Positions 16,924-21,858 of a DNA stretch of 53,761 nucleotides are shown here, piece by piece. Below the pieces are notes generated by a model, which made no database searches, was not told where the DNA came from, and saw only the letters and a list, made by a program, of their open reading frames with translations. Source of the stretch: a virus. Taxonomy: Duplodnaviria; Caudoviricetes. Positions within the stretch are counted from its first letter, which is position 1; each line of letters begins with the position of its first letter. Both the position numbers and the translations under genes were made by a program. Where the stretch lies: IMG/VR virus record IMGVR_UViG_3300050015_000366, positions 1-53,761 of that record; one strand, 5' to 3'.

Positions 16924-18645
16924 ATGACGTTCCACCTCAGCGACCACTCGGCGCCCGTCGACCTCTCGGCTTTGATCGACACGCGACTGCTCGTTCAGGC
17001 CAACAGCGGCGGCGGCAAGAGCTGGTGCTTGCGGCGCATCCTCGAGCAGACGCACGGGCGGGCGCAGCACCTGGTGATCGACCCAGAGGGCGAGTTTGCC
17101 AGCCTCCGGGAGCGGTTCGACTACGTGCTCGCCGCGCGCCAGGGCGGGGACACGGCCGCAGACCCGCGCTCCGCAAAGCTCCTGGCTGAACGCCTGCTCG
17201 AGCTCGGGGCCTCGGCCGTCCTCGACATCTACGAGCTGAAGGCGCACGAGCGCATCCGGTTCGTGCGCGCCTTCCTCGAGGCGCTGGTCGATGCCCCGAA
17301 GAAGCTCTGGCATCCGGCGCTGGTCGTGGTCGACGAGGCGCACGTCTACTGCCCGCAGGTAGGCGAGGCCGAGAGCGCCGGCGCCGTCATTGACCTGGCG
17401 ACGCGCGGCCGCAAGCGCGGGTTCTGCGCCATCCTCGCTACGCAGCGCCTCTCGAAGCTCCACAAGGACGCCGCGGCGGAGTGCAACAACAAGCTGATCG
17501 GGCGCACTGGCCTCGACGTCGACATGAAGCGCGCCGGCGACGAGCTCGGGTTTACCAAGGACCGGCTCCACGAGCTGCGCGAGCTGGACGCGGGGCACTT
17601 CTTCGCGTTCGGGCCGGCCATCTCCAGGAGCGTAACGAAGGTCCACGTCGGCGGCGTGCAGACGACGCACCCGAAGACGGGCAGCCGGATCGCGTTCACC
17701 GCGCCGCCACCCACAGAGAAGGTCCGCGCGCTGCTTCCGAAGCTGGCCGACCTTCCGGCGGAAGCCGAGGCCCGCCAGAAGACGGTCGAGGACCTCAAGC
17801 GTGAGCTGGCCACGGCGCGCCGCGAGCTGACGATCGCCAGGCAAGCCGCCCCGGCTCCGGCGCCGCCGAAGGTCGAGCGGATCGAGGTTCCGGTTCTGGT
17901 GGACGAAGATCGGGCAGGGCTCCGGGAAGTCGTCCAGTCGCTTCGATCGACCGCGGAAACACTGGGCGCTCGTGCGGACCAAATCGAGGGGGCGCTCCGC
18001 CGAGTAGGCCAGGCGCCGATGGAGCCGCGCGGACTGCGCCCGATGCCGAACGCGACGCGGCAAATCCAGCAGCACGTGGACGGCATGATTGCTCGCGCCG
18101 CGCGGAAGCCTGTGACGCCGTCGCTGCCGCGGCGAGCCGCCGAGTCGAACGGCAATCTCACCGGCCCCGAGCAGCGCATCCTCGACGCGATTGCGTGGCT
18201 CGCGGCGATCGGCGTCTCGGAACCCGAGCAGGCCGCCGTCGCCTTCCTCGCCGGCTACACCTACGGCGGCGGCGCCTTCAACAACCCGCGCGGCTCGCTC
18301 CGCACGAGGGGCCTAGTCGACTACCGGCCAGGGGAGCGCATCGTCCTGACGGTTGATGGTGCCGCCTCGGCCAACGCGCCCGACGCGCCGCTGACCGCCG
18401 AGGAGCTGCAGGCCCGCGTGCTGGCGCGCCTGCCGGGCCCGGAGCAGCGCCTCCTGCGGCCGCTCCTGGCCGCCTACCCTGACGCGCTCAGCAACGAGGA
18501 CCTGGCCGGCCAGGCGAACTACACGCCGAACGCAGGGGCGTTCAACAACCCGAGGGGGCGCCTGCGAAGCCTCGGCCTCATCGACTACCCGCGGCCCGGC
18601 TACGTCGTCGCGAAGCCGCTGCTGTTCCTGGAGGAACGCTCGTGA
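16924..18645 (+). CDS. HerA/FtsK-superfamily ATPase with tandem C-terminal winged-helix repeats
   Basis: ANSGGGKS, VIDPEGE, VVDEAH, GRKRG, LATQR; GAFNNPRG-x-LR-x2-GL-x-DY occurs twice. Confidence 0.85.
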   Translation: MTFHLSDHSAPVDLSALIDTRLLVQANSGGGKSWCLRRILEQTHGRAQHLVIDPEGEFASLRERFDYVLAARQGGDTAADPRSAKLLAERLLELGASAVLDIYELKAHERIRFVRAFLEALVDAPKKLWHPALVVVDEAHVYCPQVGEAESAGAVIDLATRGRKRGFCAILATQRLSKLHKDAAAECNNKLIGRTGLDVDMKRAGDELGFTKDRLHELRELDAGHFFAFGPAISRSVTKVHVGGVQTTHPKTGSRIAFTAPPPTEKVRALLPKLADLPAEAEARQKTVEDLKRELATARRELTIARQAAPAPAPPKVERIEVPVLVDEDRAGLREVVQSLRSTAETLGARADQIEGALRRVGQAPMEPRGLRPMPNATRQIQQHVDGMIARAARKPVTPSLPRRAAESNGNLTGPEQRILDAIAWLAAIGVSEPEQAAVAFLAGYTYGGGAFNNPRGSLRTRGLVDYRPGERIVLTVDGAASANAPDAPLTAEELQARVLARLPGPEQRLLRPLLAAYPDALSNEDLAGQANYTPNAGAFNNPRGRLRSLGLIDYPRPGYVVAKPLLFLEERS

Positions 18646-20849
18646 GCGCCTACGCCCTCCGGCCCTATCAGCGTTCCGCCGCCGACGCCGGCGTGGCCTA
18701 CTTGACCAACCCGCGGCTGCGCGACCGGAACGGCATCATCGTCGCGCCGACGGGGTCAGGGAAATCGCTACTGGTCGCCAGCATCGCGACGGCGCTGCCG
18801 GGGCCGTGCATCGTCCTGCAGCCGACCAAGGAGATCCTCGAGCAGAACGCCGCGAAGCTCACAGCCTACGGCTTTCCGCCGGCCCTGTACTCGGCCAGCG
18901 TAGGCCGCAAGGAGATCGGGCGCATCACGCTCGCGACGTTCGGCAGCGTGGTCAAGCAGGCGGAGGCGTTCCGGGACTTCTCGTTCGTGCTCATCGATGA
19001 GTGCTTTGTCGCCGGAACGCTTGTTGATGGTCGCCCAATCGAGAGCGTTCTTCCCGGAGACGTCGTCACGACATACGACCACGAACGGGGGCAGGTCTCG
19101 TCCGGTCGCGTGCTTTCGACGATGAAGCGGCTGAGGCCGGAACGGCTCTGCCGCGTTACGGCTAGTGGCCAGCAAGTCTCGTGTACGCCAAATCATCCGT
19201 TTTTCGTCGAGGGCCACGGCTACACGCGAGCCGACAGCCTTCAGATCGGAGATCGCCTTGCCTACTGGAGTCTACCAACGACCACCGCTCCCGATAGTGC
19301 CGTGCACCCACTGCGGAGCGGACCTGAAGATCAAGAACGGGGCCCAGCATTCCTATTATCGGAAGACCGGGAGGGCTTTTCACCCGGAATGCGGGCGAAG
19401 ACAGGTCTCGGAGAACACGTCCCGGATTATGTCTGGGAGGACGCCGACCCTCAAGGCCAGGGCCGCGTCCAGCGAGCGGATGAAGCGCCGGAATCCGATG
19501 TCCAACCCGCTGATTCGCGCGAAGGTCTCCGGGTCACTGCGCAAGATCGGACACCGTCCGCGCGTTCGGGGCGGGAACGGGTGTCCGATGCCAGAGGCAC
19601 AGCGGTTGCTGCTGGCCCGACTCGGAGAGGGATGGGCCCTGGAATTCGTGGTGAAAACAGGACGTCGAGCCGAGGGGTATCCGCATTGCTACAAGATCGA
19701 CCTGGCGAACCCGGCCCTGATGATCGCGGTCGAGATCGACGGGGGGAGCCACAGTCTATCGAGGCGAGCGGAGGACGAACGGAAAACGGCGTTCTTGACC
19801 TCGCTCGGGTGGAGAGTGTGGAGGTTCTCGAACGAGAGCGTCCTAACCTCTTTGGAGCTGGTTGCGCGGGAGATTACGTTTACAACCTCGAAGTAGCCGA
19901 GCACAACAACTACTTCGCCAACGGTCTCCTCGTCCACAACTGCCACCAGGCCGTCTCGCCGAAGGGCGGCATGGTCAAGGCCTTCCTCGACGTGCTGCAG
20001 CACGCGAGAATTCTCGGATTCACAGCCACGCCGTTCCGGCTCGCGAGCAACTCCTGGGGCTCGACGCTGCGCTTCCTGACCCGGACCCGGCCTCGCATCT
20101 TCCGCGACGTCGTGCACGTCACGCAGATCGCCGAGCTGGTGCGCGGCGGCTTCCTATGCCCCGTCCAGTACGACGTGCGGCCGCTCATCAAACGGGACCG
20201 CCTTCGCTACAACAGCACAGGCGGCGACTACACCGACGCGTCGGTCCAGGCGGCCTTCGCGGAAGTCGGCTTCCCGGGCCAGCTGCGCCGAGGGGTCCAG
20301 CGCGTGCTCGACAGCGGCCGGCAGCACGCCCTGGTGTTCACCCGGTTCGTCGACGAGGCGCAGCAACTCGCGGCGGCGATCCCCGGCGCGGCGGTCGTCA
20401 CTGGCGAGACGCCAGCCGGCGAGCGGGCCCGGATTCTGAACGACTTCAAGGCTGGGCGGATCCGAGTCGTGGCGAACTGCGCTGTCCTACTCGTGGGCTT
20501 CGACTTCCCCGAGCTGGACGCCGTCGTGCTGGCCTCGCCGACCGTCTCCCTGGCCCGCTACTACCAGAGCGTCGGCCGCGGTATTCGCCCGGCGCCGGGC
20601 AAGCGTGATGCCCTGGTCGTGGACCTAGTGGGGACCGTCGAGCAGTTCGGCCACGTCGAGGATCTCGTGCTCGAGCCGGGCGGTGTGACAGGTGAGAAGT
20701 GGGTGGTCAAGAGCAGGGGGCGAGAGTTGACGAATTGCTACTACGGCGACCAGGCGAGCCAGGAGAAGCGGAAGAAGTCGGCGGAGTTCTGGAGCGGGCG
20801 GCGGGGTGGACAGGCGAGGTCACAGGCGGCGGACAACGGACGATTTTAG
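18642..20849 (+). CDS. SF2 (DExH) helicase containing an intein
   Basis: LRPYQ, APTGSGKS, DE|CH split by the intein, GFTATP, GFDFP, YYQSVGRGIR. Confidence 0.92.
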   Translation: MSAYALRPYQRSAADAGVAYLTNPRLRDRNGIIVAPTGSGKSLLVASIATALPGPCIVLQPTKEILEQNAAKLTAYGFPPALYSASVGRKEIGRITLATFGSVVKQAEAFRDFSFVLIDECFVAGTLVDGRPIESVLPGDVVTTYDHERGQVSSGRVLSTMKRLRPERLCRVTASGQQVSCTPNHPFFVEGHGYTRADSLQIGDRLAYWSLPTTTAPDSAVHPLRSGPEDQERGPAFLLSEDREGFSPGMRAKTGLGEHVPDYVWEDADPQGQGRVQRADEAPESDVQPADSREGLRVTAQDRTPSARSGRERVSDARGTAVAAGPTRRGMGPGIRGENRTSSRGVSALLQDRPGEPGPDDRGRDRRGEPQSIEASGGRTENGVLDLARVESVEVLERERPNLFGAGCAGDYVYNLEVAEHNNYFANGLLVHNCHQAVSPKGGMVKAFLDVLQHARILGFTATPFRLASNSWGSTLRFLTRTRPRIFRDVVHVTQIAELVRGGFLCPVQYDVRPLIKRDRLRYNSTGGDYTDASVQAAFAEVGFPGQLRRGVQRVLDSGRQHALVFTRFVDEAQQLAAAIPGAAVVTGETPAGERARILNDFKAGRIRVVANCAVLLVGFDFPELDAVVLASPTVSLARYYQSVGRGIRPAPGKRDALVVDLVGTVEQFGHVEDLVLEPGGVTGEKWVVKSRGRELTNCYYGDQASQEKRKKSAEFWSGRRGGQARSQAADNGRF
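19002..19940 (+). mobile_element. intein (313 aa) inserted in the helicase DE/CH motif
   Basis: Starts CFVAGT, block B CTPNHPF, ends VYNLEV...NYFANGLLVHN followed by Cys+1; removal restores DECH. Confidence 0.95.
19258..19896 (+). CDS. Vsr/DUF559-like endonuclease overprinted in the +1 frame inside the helicase intein
   Basis: CTHC, NUMOD3-like RMKRRNPM...RAKVS, EAQRLL...YKIDLA...IAVEIDGGSH...DERKTAFLTSLGWRVWRFSN; GGAG SD before TTG 19258 (ORF open from 19165). Confidence 0.85.
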   Translation: MPTGVYQRPPLPIVPCTHCGADLKIKNGAQHSYYRKTGRAFHPECGRRQVSENTSRIMSGRTPTLKARAASSERMKRRNPMSNPLIRAKVSGSLRKIGHRPRVRGGNGCPMPEAQRLLLARLGEGWALEFVVKTGRRAEGYPHCYKIDLANPALMIAVEIDGGSHSLSRRAEDERKTAFLTSLGWRVWRFSNESVLTSLELVAREITFTTSK

Positions 20850-20862
20850 GGGCGGGGAATTC

Positions 20863-21858
20863 ATGCCGGACGATCGGATGTTACATCGGCGAGCGGGTCA
20901 CTCGGAGAGGGTGTCGGGGCTGTCAGACTTCGACTACAGGGTCTGGACCACCTACTTACTCGCCGCCGACGACTTCGGAATTATGCGGGCGACGGCAGTG
21001 ACCCTCCAGGCAGCGGACGAGTCACTCGCGAAAAGGCCTCCCGGCACCGTGCAGGCGGCCCTGGAACGGGTGCTCCTGGTTGGCCTGGTCGGCGTGTTCA
21101 CGCACCAGCGCCAGCGGTTCGTCTACCAAGCCGACTGGCAGGATTGGCAGAAGGTCAAGTATCCGCGGGAAACGCAGAACCCCGCGCCGCCATTGGACTT
21201 ACTCGCGAGGTGCAGCCCCGAGACTCGGGAGTTGTTCCAGAAGCACCCGGGCGGGAACAAGCCGAGGAGCGGGAAAAATTCTCCGAAGATTTCCGAAACG
21301 TTGGGGGAAAATTCTGGAAAAGTTCCGGAAACTTTTCCGCCCAACGCGCGCGCGCGTACGCCGTTAGCCGTTAGCCGTAAGCCATTAGCCGTTAGCCATA
21401 CGCCGTCAGCCGGCGGCCAGGAGGCTGCGCCTCCGACGACGGGCGCGCCACCGGACGACCCTCCCAACGATGACATCCCGACGGACGAGGAACTGCCCGA
21501 TCCCGAGCCTCAAGCCTTGAGCCCCGAGCCTCCTCCTCGGTCCGTTCCGCGAATCGCGTCCGGCCAGCACAAGCATCACGCGCACTGCGACCTGGTCTGC
21601 GTGCCCGCGTTCCTGCACGCGGAATTCCGACAGGCCCTCAACCGGCCGAACGACCCGGACGGCGTCGATGCCGAACTCGTCGCCGGCTACACCGCGCACT
21701 GCCAGGGTTGGCCAGAGGGCGAGGCCACCGGCGACGCCGTCTCATTCTGGCGGGCGTGGTTCCGAGCGCGCTACCCGGCACCGACAACCCGGCAGATCCG
21801 GCAGGTGACCGAGCGCCAGCGCAACGCGGAGTGGCTCGCTAAGGAGGGCATCCGGTGA
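20863..21858 (+). CDS. phage replication initiator / replisome organiser
   Basis: N-terminal LLAADDFG...DWQDWQK domain, low-complexity middle with internal DNA repeats, followed by a loader-like gene. Confidence 0.7.
   Translation: MPDDRMLHRRAGHSERVSGLSDFDYRVWTTYLLAADDFGIMRATAVTLQAADESLAKRPPGTVQAALERVLLVGLVGVFTHQRQRFVYQADWQDWQKVKYPRETQNPAPPLDLLARCSPETRELFQKHPGGNKPRSGKNSPKISETLGENSGKVPETFPPNARARTPLAVSRKPLAVSHTPSAGGQEAAPPTTGAPPDDPPNDDIPTDEELPDPEPQALSPEPPPRSVPRIASGQHKHHAHCDLVCVPAFLHAEFRQALNRPNDPDGVDAELVAGYTAHCQGWPEGEATGDAVSFWRAWFRARYPAPTTRQIRQVTERQRNAEWLAKEGIR
21271..21398. repeat. probable replication origin: A/T-tract repeats plus 7-bp tandem GCCGTTA x5.5
   Basis: GGAAAAATTCT/GGAAAATTCT/GGAAAAGTTCC/GGAAACTTTTCC, then (GCCGTTA)-like units at 21360-21398, inside the initiator gene. 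Confidence 0.6.

What the first reader, a model, noticed from the sequence alone, without database searches (positions are those of the whole stretch)
19002..19940. Helicase intein contains an endonuclease overprinted in the +1 frame
Seen: the intein frame is open for 313 codons, but residues of about 90-265 are low-complexity R/G/P/D/E sequence. The +1 frame over the same DNA reads as a clear protein (MPTGVYQRPP...CTHC, a NUMOD3-like basic segment, then YKIDLA...IAVEIDGGSH...DERKTAFLTSLGWRVWRFSN). Its TTG start at 19258 has a GGAG SD that lies within the codons for the intein's IGD motif, and its stop at 19896 lies within the C-terminal splicing block. Inference: the in-frame linker is a by-product of a nested homing-endonuclease gene and must stay stop-free for the helicase (DE/CH) to be made.
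Basis: partly seen in the sequence, partly recalled or inferred. Interest (0 to 1): 0.9.

Follow-up and report, generated by a model that had tools for sequence, protein, structure and literature searches.

The report
Homing endonuclease gene nested out-of-frame in intein
A phage helicase gene carries a self-splicing intein whose middle encodes, one base out of frame, a complete Vsr-like homing endonuclease, and the same two-frames-in-one-DNA design recurs in about ninety other phage and metagenome sequences.

Summary
A 735-aa DExH helicase ORF (18642-20849) carries a class-1 intein (19002-19940) at DE|CH. The +1 frame (19258-19896) encodes a 212-aa protein that passes Pfam DUF559 (E 1e-10). 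It folds at pLDDT 90 and resembles 3HRL, I-Bth0305I and Vsr.

The helicase-frame reading of the same DNA is a roughly 170-residue stretch with no predicted structure, between two well-folded Hint halves. It has 0 stops against 4.96 expected, and only 0.1% of synonymous shuffles are open.

The design is conserved. In 77 of 80 related viral loci, 13 of 13 genome loci and two cultured phages, the nuclease lies +1 inside a stop-free intein frame, at GC 0.28-0.70. Three free-standing relatives carry 22-29 stops in that frame.

Only the nuclease frame is conserved in the middle. The last ~100 nt code for structured parts of both proteins. An independent assembly shows no indels.

Splicing, internal initiation and homing remain inferred. 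Out-of-frame intein endonucleases were described in 2025-26 preprints, and Vsr-like genes in split inteins in 2009. This sense-strand +1 Vsr-like form is a new variant of a known kind.

The parts
18642..20849 (+). Helicase precursor ORF, 735 aa (ResIII/DEAD N-terminal lobe, Helicase_C, RadD-like), interrupted by the intein
   Evidence: ORF list; Pfam and NCBIfam hits
18642..19001 (+). N-extein, 120 aa, ending in the D-E of helicase motif II
   Evidence: The closest intein-less homologue, L082, reads ...LIDE|CHQAV... without interruption.
19002..19940 (+). Class-1 intein, 313 aa, with Cys1, a TxxH block B, terminal His-Asn and Cys at +1
   Evidence: Pfam Intein_splicing 43.2 bits and TIGR01443. 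C1, H65 and N313 are invariant in 66 related inteins.
19002..19271 (+). N-terminal splicing (Hint) half, intein residues 1-90
   Evidence: AlphaFold pLDDT 95-98 with beta strands; N-splicing HMM hit
19272..19790 (+). Helicase-frame 'linker', intein residues ~91-263. It has no predicted structure and no conservation of its own, but is kept free of stops.
   Evidence: pLDDT 43-58 with no secondary structure. Identity equals the third-frame control. 0 stops against 4.96 expected.
19248..19251 (+). GGAG, a candidate Shine-Dalgarno site for the nested gene, inside the intein's I-G-D codons
   Evidence: Read directly from the sequence. SD-like motifs precede a start candidate in 35 of 66 related loci, against 26% in controls.
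19258..19896 (+). Nested homing-endonuclease gene in the +1 frame: 212 aa from a TTG start to a TAG stop. It has an N-terminal CCHC zinc ribbon, a helical NPM region and a C-terminal DUF559/Vsr-like nuclease.
   Evidence: Pfam DUF559 E 1e-10. 25 homologues, with all 13 invariant columns kept. pLDDT 90.1. PDB 3HRL E 1.1e-10. Foldseek finds 3HRL, 3R3P and 1VSR.
19585..19896 (+). Nuclease core of the nested protein, residues ~110-212 (GGNG, YKIDLA, EIDGGSH, D..RK, GW.V.RF.N)
   Evidence: Alignment A1; hmmsearch alignment to 3HRL; fold model
19791..19896 (+). Dual-coding segment. In frame 0 it encodes Hint beta strands (intein residues 264-277 and onwards). In frame +1 it encodes the nuclease's last strand and helices.
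   Evidence: Both models are structured here. In relatives both frames are about equally conserved and the third-position relaxation disappears. The overlap is 70-133 nt in 66 loci.
19791..19940 (+). C-terminal splicing half, with blocks F and G ending ...VHN
   Evidence: C-splicing HMM; TIGR01443; pLDDT 88-97
19941..20849 (+). C-extein, 302 aa, starting C-H (completing DECH) and carrying Helicase_C

Best explanation
This is a composite mobile element inside a phage DExH helicase gene. A contiguous class-1 intein sits at the Walker-B/motif II site (DE|CH). Its endonuclease-insertion loop is occupied by a separate, intact Vsr-like/DUF559 homing-endonuclease gene read one base downstream of the helicase frame.

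How it most likely works:
- Ribosomes translating the helicase read straight through the nuclease DNA in frame 0. This makes a ~170-residue unstructured tether between the two Hint halves.
- The halves fold and the intein splices out, restoring DECH. This step is inferred.
- Selection therefore removes every frame-0 stop, but does not otherwise constrain the tether. This is shown.
- The nuclease is made separately by internal initiation at TTG 19258, behind a GGAG. This step is inferred.
- It would cut intein-less helicase alleles at or near the DE|CH site, so that repair copies in the intein and nuclease together. This homing step is inferred from the family.
- The last ~100 nt of the nuclease gene also encode the first strands of the C-terminal splicing domain, so the two parts are physically interlocked. 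This is shown.

The nuclease gene came from a pre-existing family that also occurs free-standing next to helicase genes. The 'new' reading is the tether, not the nuclease.
For: - Identity of the parts: helicase and intein hits. The +1 ORF passes DUF559. It keeps all 13 invariant columns of 26 family members. It folds at pLDDT 90.1. It matches 3HRL (E 1.1e-10) and weakly 3R3P, and by fold 3HRL, I-Bth0305I and Vsr.
- Stop avoidance: 0 frame-0 stops in the window against a mean of 4.96, with 0.1% of 2000 shuffles open. Of 71 distinct related DNAs, 68 have 0 stops against a median expectation of 7.9. The third frame shows 14.4 stops observed against 13.4 shuffled.
- Conservation of the design: the frame in which the nuclease is +1 is open and part of a 488-1504-aa ORF in 77 of 80 viral loci. 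The other forward frame is open in 0 of 81. Locus GC spans 0.28-0.70. 13 of 13 genome-contig loci from many phyla show the same, as do Vibrio phage CP-T1 gp10 and Pseudomonas phage MR14 gp44.
- All 66 non-redundant inteins start with Cys and end in [HS]N.
- Natural controls: three free-standing relatives (L004, L044, L051) have 26, 29 and 22 stops in that frame.
- Which frame is selected: in the middle region, nuclease-frame identity is about twice the helicase-frame identity, which equals the third-frame control. Substitutions pile up at nuclease codon position 3. In the 3' overlap both frames are about equally conserved.
- The tether is unstructured and the Hint halves are confident.
- Start site: 64 of 66 loci have a start candidate near the end of the N-splicing domain. 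35 of 66 have an SD-like motif, against 26% in controls. The closest homologue, P0001, also begins M-P-T.
- Sporadic distribution: among 80 helicase homologues, 1 has this element, 6 have another intein at the same site, and the rest, including the closest at 58% identity, are empty.
- Not an assembly error: an independent assembly covers 18642-19997 with 0 differences and 0 gaps.
Against: - There is no direct evidence that the intein splices with this tether, that the +1 ORF is translated, or that its product cuts the empty site.
- The start is a TTG. Only 53% of related loci show an SD-like motif, and 2 of 66 have no ATG/GTG/TTG candidate in the scanned range.
- No + strand sigma-70-like promoter lies before the nested gene.
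- Foldseek E-values are borderline (1e-3 to 8e-3) although probability is 1.00. The sequence match to I-Bth0305I is marginal (E 0.022).
- Pairwise-identity correlations are weak: nuclease against N-splicing domain r 0.19, no stronger than nuclease against extein, r 0.25. Co-inheritance as one unit is therefore not demonstrated at this depth.
- The 80 viral loci are the best 80 of 286 confirmed relatives. The other 206 were not examined.
Confidence: 0.85

Rival explanations
1. Artefact: two compensating indel errors, or real recent frameshifts, displaced an originally in-frame endonuclease domain of an ordinary intein.
For: In-frame forms of the same nuclease core do exist in UvrD-type helicase inteins (P0171, P0173). 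Two proteins have the N-extein, N-splicing half and nuclease fused in one frame (P0108, P0170).
Against: The same +1 arrangement occurs in 77 of 80 viral loci, 13 of 13 genome loci and 2 cultured phages with divergent sequences. An independent assembly is identical, with 0 gaps. The nuclease end and the first Hint strands overlap by 70-133 nt, so no pair of indels can put both in one frame without truncating one of them.
Confidence: 0.01
2. Chance: in 68% GC DNA an alternative frame can stay open by accident, so the helicase frame may be open without selection. The real biology would then be a broken helicase or a fractured gene (split intein with a free-standing endonuclease gene, trans-splicing).
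For: The fractured-gene arrangement with Vsr-like endonucleases, including a 6-69 bp overlap with the downstream intein half, is documented (Dassa 2009, PMC2677866, passages read). High GC lowers stop frequency.
Against: Only 0.1% of synonymous shuffles of the window's gene are open. AT-rich relatives (GC 0.28-0.35) expect 9-13 stops and have none. The third frame is not depleted of stops. Free-standing relatives are full of stops. The fractured-gene definition requires a stop after the N-intein half, and that is absent here.
Confidence: 0.03
3. The nuclease is not made from its own start. It is made by +1 ribosomal frameshifting from the intein frame, which would give an N-extein, N-Hint and nuclease fusion.
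For: The start is a weak TTG. 31 of 66 loci lack an SD-like motif and 2 of 66 lack a start candidate. Fused forms P0108 and P0170 exist in databases.
Against: 64 of 66 loci keep a start codon within about -30 to +120 nt of the end of the N-splicing domain. SD-like motifs are twice as frequent as in controls. Gene callers give compact 158-330 aa proteins for 148 of the best 150 family clusters. No shared slippery motif was looked for or seen.
Confidence: 0.06
4. The nested gene is intact but no longer a homing enzyme. It might be a decaying remnant, or a nuclease used for something else such as competition between phages.
For: No activity data exist. Correlations between nuclease, intein and extein histories are weak. 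Nuclease genes at exchange boundaries in phages are known (PMC10448857, search listing only).
Against: Purifying selection acts on the nuclease frame and all invariant residues are kept. The element is scattered among helicase homologues that have empty sites. It is found at analogous sites in SNF2 helicases and terminases, as expected of an active invader.
Confidence: 0.05

Closest known systems
Non-canonical actinobacteriophage inteins with homing endonucleases outside the intein frame (Gosselin, Arsenault & Gogarten, bioRxiv 10.1101/2025.01.02.630785; abstract, sections 8 and 15 and passages read)
   Same: A contiguous intein whose 'endonuclease region' is unstructured in the host frame, while a real endonuclease is encoded in another reading of the same DNA. 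The proposed origin is invasion of an intein by a free-standing endonuclease gene.
   Different: That paper reports an antisense LAGLIDADG, an antisense VSR-like and a frame-3 endonuclease VII-like enzyme, in DNA polymerase, minor capsid, terminase and thymidylate synthase. It states that VSR-like enzymes were otherwise known only with split inteins. Here the VSR-like gene is on the sense strand in frame +1, mostly in DExH helicases. It overlaps the splicing domain itself, and it is found across many phyla. Its supplementary tables could not be seen.
Cyanobacterial dnaX intein with an out-of-frame LAGLIDADG endonuclease (Phillips, DeSimone & Gogarten, bioRxiv 10.64898/2026.09.14.751524; abstract and section 17 read; that text cites Gorbalenya 1998, which I did not read)
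   Same: A sense-strand out-of-frame endonuclease in a contiguous intein. Selection is frame-dependent, with the nuclease frame conserved.
   Different: A different nuclease family (LAGLIDADG), frame (+2), host gene (dnaX) and lineage (cyanobacterial chromosomes).
Fractured genes: split inteins with a free-standing Vsr-like or GIY-YIG endonuclease gene between the halves (Dassa et al. 2009, PMC2677866; abstract and passages read)
   Same: A Vsr-like endonuclease gene sits at the intein's endonuclease site in phage DNA-metabolism genes, on the same strand, and its 3' end overlaps the C-terminal intein half.
   Different: There the upstream frame ends in a stop, followed by 27-51 nt of non-coding DNA, and the halves trans-splice. 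Here the host frame is continuous and kept stop-free.
[quoted passage not shown] 2011, PMC3239194; passages read; PDB 3R3P)
   Same: An N-terminal DNA-binding region plus a C-terminal Vsr-like PD-(D/E)xK core. Foldseek probability is 1.00 and TM 0.67-0.69 relative to the target.
   Different: I-Bth0305I is encoded in a group I intron and has NUMOD2/HTH repeats. Here there is a zinc ribbon and a different helical region. Sequence similarity is marginal (E 0.022). The closer relative is DUF559 protein 3HRL.
ShiLan element: a hidden out-of-frame HNH endonuclease in a stop-free insertion in phage methylases (Arsenault et al. 2025, PMC11855218; abstract and passages read)
   Same: The host frame reads through an endonuclease gene that lies in another frame, and no stops occur in the host frame.
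   Different: That element has no splicing domain, so the insertion apparently stays in the protein. It uses an HNH nuclease in the third frame.
In-frame DUF559 inteins in UvrD-type helicases
   Same: The same nuclease core motifs and the same kind of site (DE|C ... HN|C).
   Different: The nuclease is in frame as an ordinary intein domain and does not overlap the splicing strands. These forms are rare: 3 of the 4 long proteins found. By contrast, 148 of the best 150 family clusters are compact proteins of 158-330 aa.

Membership tests
Class-1 intein (Hint fold protein-splicing element) | Cys/Ser at position 1, block B T-x-x-H, C-terminal His-Asn, and Cys/Ser/Thr at +1 of the C-extein | tested here: met
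   Cys1 at 19002, a T..H block...VHN ending at 19940, and Cys +1. C1, H65 and N313 are invariant, and T62 and H312 at least 90% conserved, in 66 inteins.
Class-1 intein (Hint fold protein-splicing element) | Sequence and fold match to intein splicing domains | tested here: met
   PF14890 43.2 bits (cut-off 35.8) and TIGR01443 24.8 bits (cut-off 15.6). The AlphaFold beta-rich halves score pLDDT 88-98. That model was not compared with solved inteins.
Class-1 intein (Hint fold protein-splicing element) | Actual protein splicing | not testable with these tools
   Inferred from the intact catalytic residues and from selection for an open frame.
DUF559 / Vsr-like PD-(D/E)xK endonuclease (Pfam PF04480) | Score above the Pfam gathering threshold | tested here: met
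   41.9 bits against 20.6, E 1e-10. The profile of 26 members hits PDB 3HRL at E 1.1e-10.
DUF559 / Vsr-like PD-(D/E)xK endonuclease (Pfam PF04480) | Vsr-like alpha/beta nuclease fold | tested here: met
   Model pLDDT 90.1. Foldseek finds 3HRL (TM 0.80 relative to the target, rmsd 2.1), 3R3P and 1VSR. E-values are 1e-3 or weaker, and probability is 0.89-1.00.
EDxHD homing endonucleases (I-Bth0305I type) | The composite E-D-x-H-D catalytic motif, and clear homology to I-Bth0305I | tested here: inconclusive
   E159, D161, H165 and D173 are invariant or at least 90% conserved in A1. I did not map them onto the published motif. The sequence match to 3R3P is E 0.022.
Homing endonuclease (functional class) | Site-specific cleavage of the element-free allele, and gene conversion | not testable with these tools
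   Indirect only: empty DE|CH sites in the closest helicase homologues, and presence at analogous sites in other ATPases.
Fractured gene / naturally split intein (Dassa 2009) | A stop codon ends the N-extein/N-intein ORF before the endonuclease gene, and the C half has a separate start | tested here: not met
   The helicase frame is open across the whole nested gene in the window and in 77 of 80 viral loci.
Inteins with an out-of-frame endonuclease (non-canonical architecture, 2025-26 preprints) | A contiguous intein with an intact endonuclease ORF in another reading of the endonuclease region, and a host-frame reading that is unstructured | tested here: met
   No NUMOD family among the Pfam hits at E<=1.

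The most novel reading that the evidence does not exclude
The overlap is an adaptation, not a frozen accident. One ancient composite, a class-1 intein interlocked with a +1-frame Vsr-like endonuclease gene whose 3' end doubles as the first strands of the C-terminal splicing domain, has radiated through phages of many bacterial phyla. It hops between Walker-B sites of DExH, SNF2 and UvrD-type helicases and terminases. Because deleting or truncating the nuclease gene also damages splicing of an essential protein, the interlock would protect the nuclease from the decay phase of the homing cycle. Read-through by helicase-frame ribosomes would hold nuclease expression low. The rare in-frame and fused forms would be exits from this state.
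Probability: 0.3. Interest if true: 0.8.

Novelty: new variant of a known kind. Interest (0 to 1): 0.62.

Why it matters
- It shows, with a natural control and quantitative tests, a long dual-reading stretch in which one frame is selected for protein sequence and the other only for the absence of stops. It ends in about 100 nt that encode structured parts of two different proteins.
- It fills the gap between 'fractured genes' (split inteins with a free-standing endonuclease gene) and ordinary in-frame inteins, an intermediate that earlier models predicted.
- The endonuclease gene has no annotation of its own in the two cultured-phage records I opened. It lies inside CDSs called 'putative helicase'. 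Annotation pipelines and intein surveys that read one frame would miss it.
- The family offers many natural site-specific nucleases aimed at conserved ATPase motifs.
- It also offers inteins that tolerate a ~170-residue unstructured insert.

Tried and rejected
I used the search for related loci instead.
- The Mantel-type comparison of pairwise identities (48 DE|CH loci) gave weak correlations everywhere except between the two extein halves (r 0.63). It neither shows nor excludes co-inheritance of nuclease and splicing domain.
- The promoter and terminator scan of 18400-21000 found no + strand promoter-like site and no terminator. It is uninformative for a high-GC phage.
- No RNA holder was listed for the stretch, so nothing can be said on expression.
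- Run X3 holds only a small share: one identical 211-nt contig plus fragments. I do not use it for habitat.
- Foldseek against the PDB gave no hit below E 1e-3. I did not run the VIA-align libraries.
- The NUMOD3 label was not supported.
- I considered a function for the tether itself. I rejected it because its identity among relatives equals the third-frame control.
- Literature searches that found nothing on this exact form: 'intein'+'DUF559' found 1 paper, unrelated to frames. 'intein'+'overprinting' found 1, unrelated. 'CP-T1'+'intein' found 0. 'intein'+'alternative reading frame'+'homing endonuclease' found 0. 'intein'+'out-of-frame'+'endonuclease'+'helicase' found 5, of which the two relevant ones are cited above. 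The library lacks most subscription journals, and supplements were closed. The supplementary tables of the 2025 preprint may list further architectures.
Full report
**What is there**

The window is a 53,761-bp viral contig with 67.7% GC. ORF 18642-20849 (735 aa) is a DExH helicase with ResIII, DEAD, Helicase_C and RadD-like matches. It is interrupted between D-E and C-H of motif II by a 313-codon intein, 19002-19940. The intein has Cys1, a T-x-x-H block, a terminal His-Asn and Cys at +1. Pfam Intein_splicing and TIGR01443 pass their cut-offs.

One base downstream of the helicase frame, an ORF runs from TTG 19258 to TAG 19894-19896. The TTG is preceded by GGAG at 19248-19251 with a 6-nt spacer. 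Its 212-aa product passes Pfam DUF559 (41.9 bits against 20.6).

The position of highest GC in the codon moves to the third position of this +1 frame across exactly this stretch. The exception is the 'NUMOD3' label, which Pfam does not support at E<=1.

**The +1 product is a real protein of a large family**

A word-indexed search found 25 homologues. All carry DUF559, and the best is 58% identical. In the alignment, the window's protein keeps all 13 invariant columns: GGNG, K..D, E.DG.SH, D, L, G and N.

A profile search of 1.84 billion representatives found 963 clusters at E<=1e-30. The best 150 are 158-496 aa long, and 148 of them are at most 330 aa.

AlphaFold with 26 sequences gives mean pLDDT 90.1. 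The profile hits PDB 3HRL, a DUF559 endonuclease-like protein, at E 1.1e-10. It hits 3R3P, the I-Bth0305I catalytic domain, at E 0.022. Foldseek ranks 3HRL, 3R3P and, lower down, Vsr itself. Probabilities are 0.89-1.00, but E-values are only 1e-3 or weaker.

The N-terminal half is a C-x2-C ... H-x2-C zinc ribbon followed by conserved helices with an NPM motif.

**The helicase-frame reading is a by-product that is kept open**

AlphaFold on 66 related inteins gives the following for the window's intein:
- residues 1-90: pLDDT 95-98;
- residues ~91-262: pLDDT 43-58 with no secondary structure;
- residues 264-277: strands, in 10-residue blocks averaging pLDDT 88;
- residues 292-313: pLDDT 96-97.

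I shuffled synonymous codons of the +1 gene, which keeps its protein and its codon usage. This gave a mean of 4.96 stops in the helicase frame, and only 0.1% of 2000 shuffles were stop-free. The real sequence has none. The third frame has 9 stops against 10.3 expected.

**The design is conserved, which excludes accident and error**

A scan of viral contigs returned the best 80 of 286 confirmed relatives.
- In every locus the nuclease homologue is a compact stop-to-stop ORF of 173-357 aa.
- In 77 of 80 loci, the frame in which the nuclease is +1 is open across the whole nuclease and belongs to an ORF of 488-1504 aa. The other forward frame is open in 0 of 81.
- Locus GC ranges from 0.28 to 0.70.
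- Among 71 distinct nuclease DNAs, 68 have no host-frame stop, against a median expectation of 7.9. The AT-rich ones expect 9-13.
- HMMs seeded with the window's N- and C-splicing parts hit 76 of 78 and 78 of 78 host ORFs. One of the 78 C-splicing hits (L015) did not lie beside the nuclease gene, and the two N-splicing misses are loci cut at a contig end.
- All 66 non-redundant inteins, the window's included, begin with Cys and end in His-Asn or Ser-Asn.

The three exceptions (L004, L044, L051) are free-standing copies. They lie immediately upstream of, and slightly overlapping, a helicase gene. They carry 26, 29 and 22 stops in the corresponding frame, against 26.9, 29.3 and 15.4 in their shuffles. 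This makes them a natural control.

Further cases of the nested form:
- All 13 loci found in prokaryotic genome assemblies from many phyla, mostly MAGs.
- One of the window helicase's own homologues, L093.
- Vibrio phage CP-T1 gp10 and Pseudomonas phage MR14 gp44, where GenBank annotates only a 'putative helicase'.

Forty GenBank phage records match the nuclease, but I checked only those two for nesting.

An independent peat-metagenome assembly (X2) covers 18642-19997 in one contig with 0 differences and 0 gaps. X1 may be the source sample and is not independent. These are contigs, not raw reads.

**Which frame is under selection**

I used a codon alignment of 66 non-redundant nested genes, split into two regions: the part upstream of the C-splicing domain, and the part that overlaps it.

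In the upstream part, nuclease-frame identity is about twice the helicase-frame identity (for example 0.444 against 0.212). The helicase-frame identity is indistinguishable from that of the non-coding third frame (0.211). Differences concentrate at nuclease codon position 3.

In the overlap the two frames are about equally conserved (0.346 against 0.301; in closer pairs 0.663 against 0.679). The excess of differences at position 3 shrinks and, in the closer pairs, disappears.

The overlap is 70-133 nt long, median 97. The nuclease stop lies at discrete places in blocks F and G. It ends 8 nt before the intein's last base in 26 loci, 44 nt in 12 and 50 nt in 9. TAG is the stop in 53 of 66 loci.

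In the window, 19791-19896 encodes Hint strands in frame 0. In frame +1 it encodes the last strand and helices of the nuclease. Both are modelled with confidence.

**Mobility**

The insertion sites of the 66 inteins are:

| Site (N-extein end / C-extein start) | Count |
|---|---|
| DE/CH | 53 (2 of these inteins end in Ser-Asn) |
| DE/SS | 5 |
| CW/CE | 3 |
| DE/CQ | 2 |
| DE/ST | 1 |
| DE/CT | 1 |
| DV/CW | 1 |

Pfam assigns representative hosts to ResIII/DEAD helicases, SNF2 helicases and large terminases (Terminase_3, Terminase_6N).

I also examined 80 homologues of the window's C-extein. The closest, at 58% identity, reads ...LIDE|CHQAV... without interruption. Only 1 of the 80 has this element, and 6 have a different intein at the same site.

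Correlations of pairwise identity are weak: nuclease against N-splicing domain r 0.19, nuclease against C-extein r 0.25, and N- against C-extein r 0.63. These do not settle whether the nuclease and the splicing domain travel as one unit.

**How the nuclease is made**

64 of 66 loci keep an ATG, GTG or TTG within about -30 to +120 nt of the end of the N-splicing domain. 35 of 66 have an SD-like tetramer before one of them, against 26% for random same-frame triplets in extein DNA. The closest homologue begins M-P-T like the window's product.

Internal initiation is therefore the likeliest route, but it is inferred. Two database proteins (P0108, P0170) have the N-extein, N-splicing half and nuclease in one frame. 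I could not fetch their DNA.

Rare in-frame forms exist. P0171 and P0173 are UvrD-type helicases whose intein carries the same nuclease core in frame, without overlap with the splicing strands.

**Comparison with what is known**

- Vsr-like endonuclease genes between the halves of split inteins were described in 2009 ('fractured genes'), including a 6-69 bp overlap with the downstream half. There, however, a stop and a non-coding spacer follow the N half (PMC2677866, passages).
- The family's biochemical representative is I-Bth0305I (PMC3239194, passages).
- A 2025 preprint reports contiguous actinophage inteins with antisense LAGLIDADG, antisense VSR-like and frame-3 endonuclease VII-like genes. 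It states that VSR-like enzymes were otherwise known only with split inteins (10.1101/2025.01.02.630785, sections 8 and 15).
- A 2026 preprint describes a +2-frame LAGLIDADG in the cyanobacterial dnaX intein and calls such cases a rarity (10.64898/2026.09.14.751524, abstract and section 17).
- A 2025 paper describes an out-of-frame HNH gene in a stop-free insertion without splicing domains (PMC11855218, passages).

I found no report of a sense-strand +1 Vsr-like gene in a contiguous helicase intein. Supplements were closed and subscription journals are mostly absent from the library.

The kind is therefore known. This form is new in several respects: its interlock with the splicing domain, its breadth and its quantitative support.

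**Verdict**

Confidence is 0.85 that this is a conserved, selected two-frame element working as described. Splicing, internal initiation and homing are inferred steps.

Noticed in passing
Its antisense 281-aa ORF has only HTH hits in Pfam and no PDB sequence match. A profile comparison with the nested-nuclease family aligns 81 columns over the nuclease core at probability 46.8%, E 2e-4. It may correspond to the 'antisense VSR-like' type reported in minor-capsid inteins of actinophages.
   Followed up: partly
P0171, P0173 (and fragment P0172): These are UvrD-type helicases whose intein (DE|C ... HN|CQ) carries the same nuclease core in frame. They are rare canonical counterparts of the out-of-frame form.
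   Followed up: partly
P0108, P0170: In these proteins the N-extein, N-splicing half and nuclease are read in one frame, ending at the nuclease stop. They could be real fused or split variants, or frameshift errors. Their DNA could not be fetched.
   Followed up: no
L004 1513-2148, L044 2998-3639, L051 2806-3435: These are free-standing members of the same nuclease family. Each lies directly upstream of a helicase gene and overlaps its start by 14-32 nt. This is a plausible source population for the intein-nested copies.
   Followed up: partly
L175 (Vibrio phage CP-T1 gp10), L176 (Pseudomonas phage MR14 gp44): These cultured phages carry the nested element. GenBank annotates only 'putative helicase' over it. 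40 phage records match the nuclease in all: 37 Vibrio, 2 Corynebacterium and 1 Pseudomonas.
   Followed up: partly
L015 2169-5414: This 1082-aa helicase-methylase ORF has the N-splicing half and an open host frame over a 357-aa nuclease-frame ORF. No C-splicing hit was found near the nuclease stop, so it may be a degenerate or rearranged copy.
   Followed up: no
L012 1281-5792, L078 3-2528, L067 801-4715: These host ORFs carry a second mobile element (LAGLIDADG/Hom_end intein parts or an HNH_3 domain) besides the nested-nuclease intein.
   Followed up: no
L094, L098, L099 (and 3 loci with the same upstream sequence as L099): A different intein, ending ...SGN, occupies the same DE|CH site in homologues of the window's helicase.
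   Followed up: no
window 18642-18645: The helicase GTG start overlaps the stop of the upstream 573-aa ORF (16924-18645) by 4 nt, which suggests one operon.
   Followed up: no
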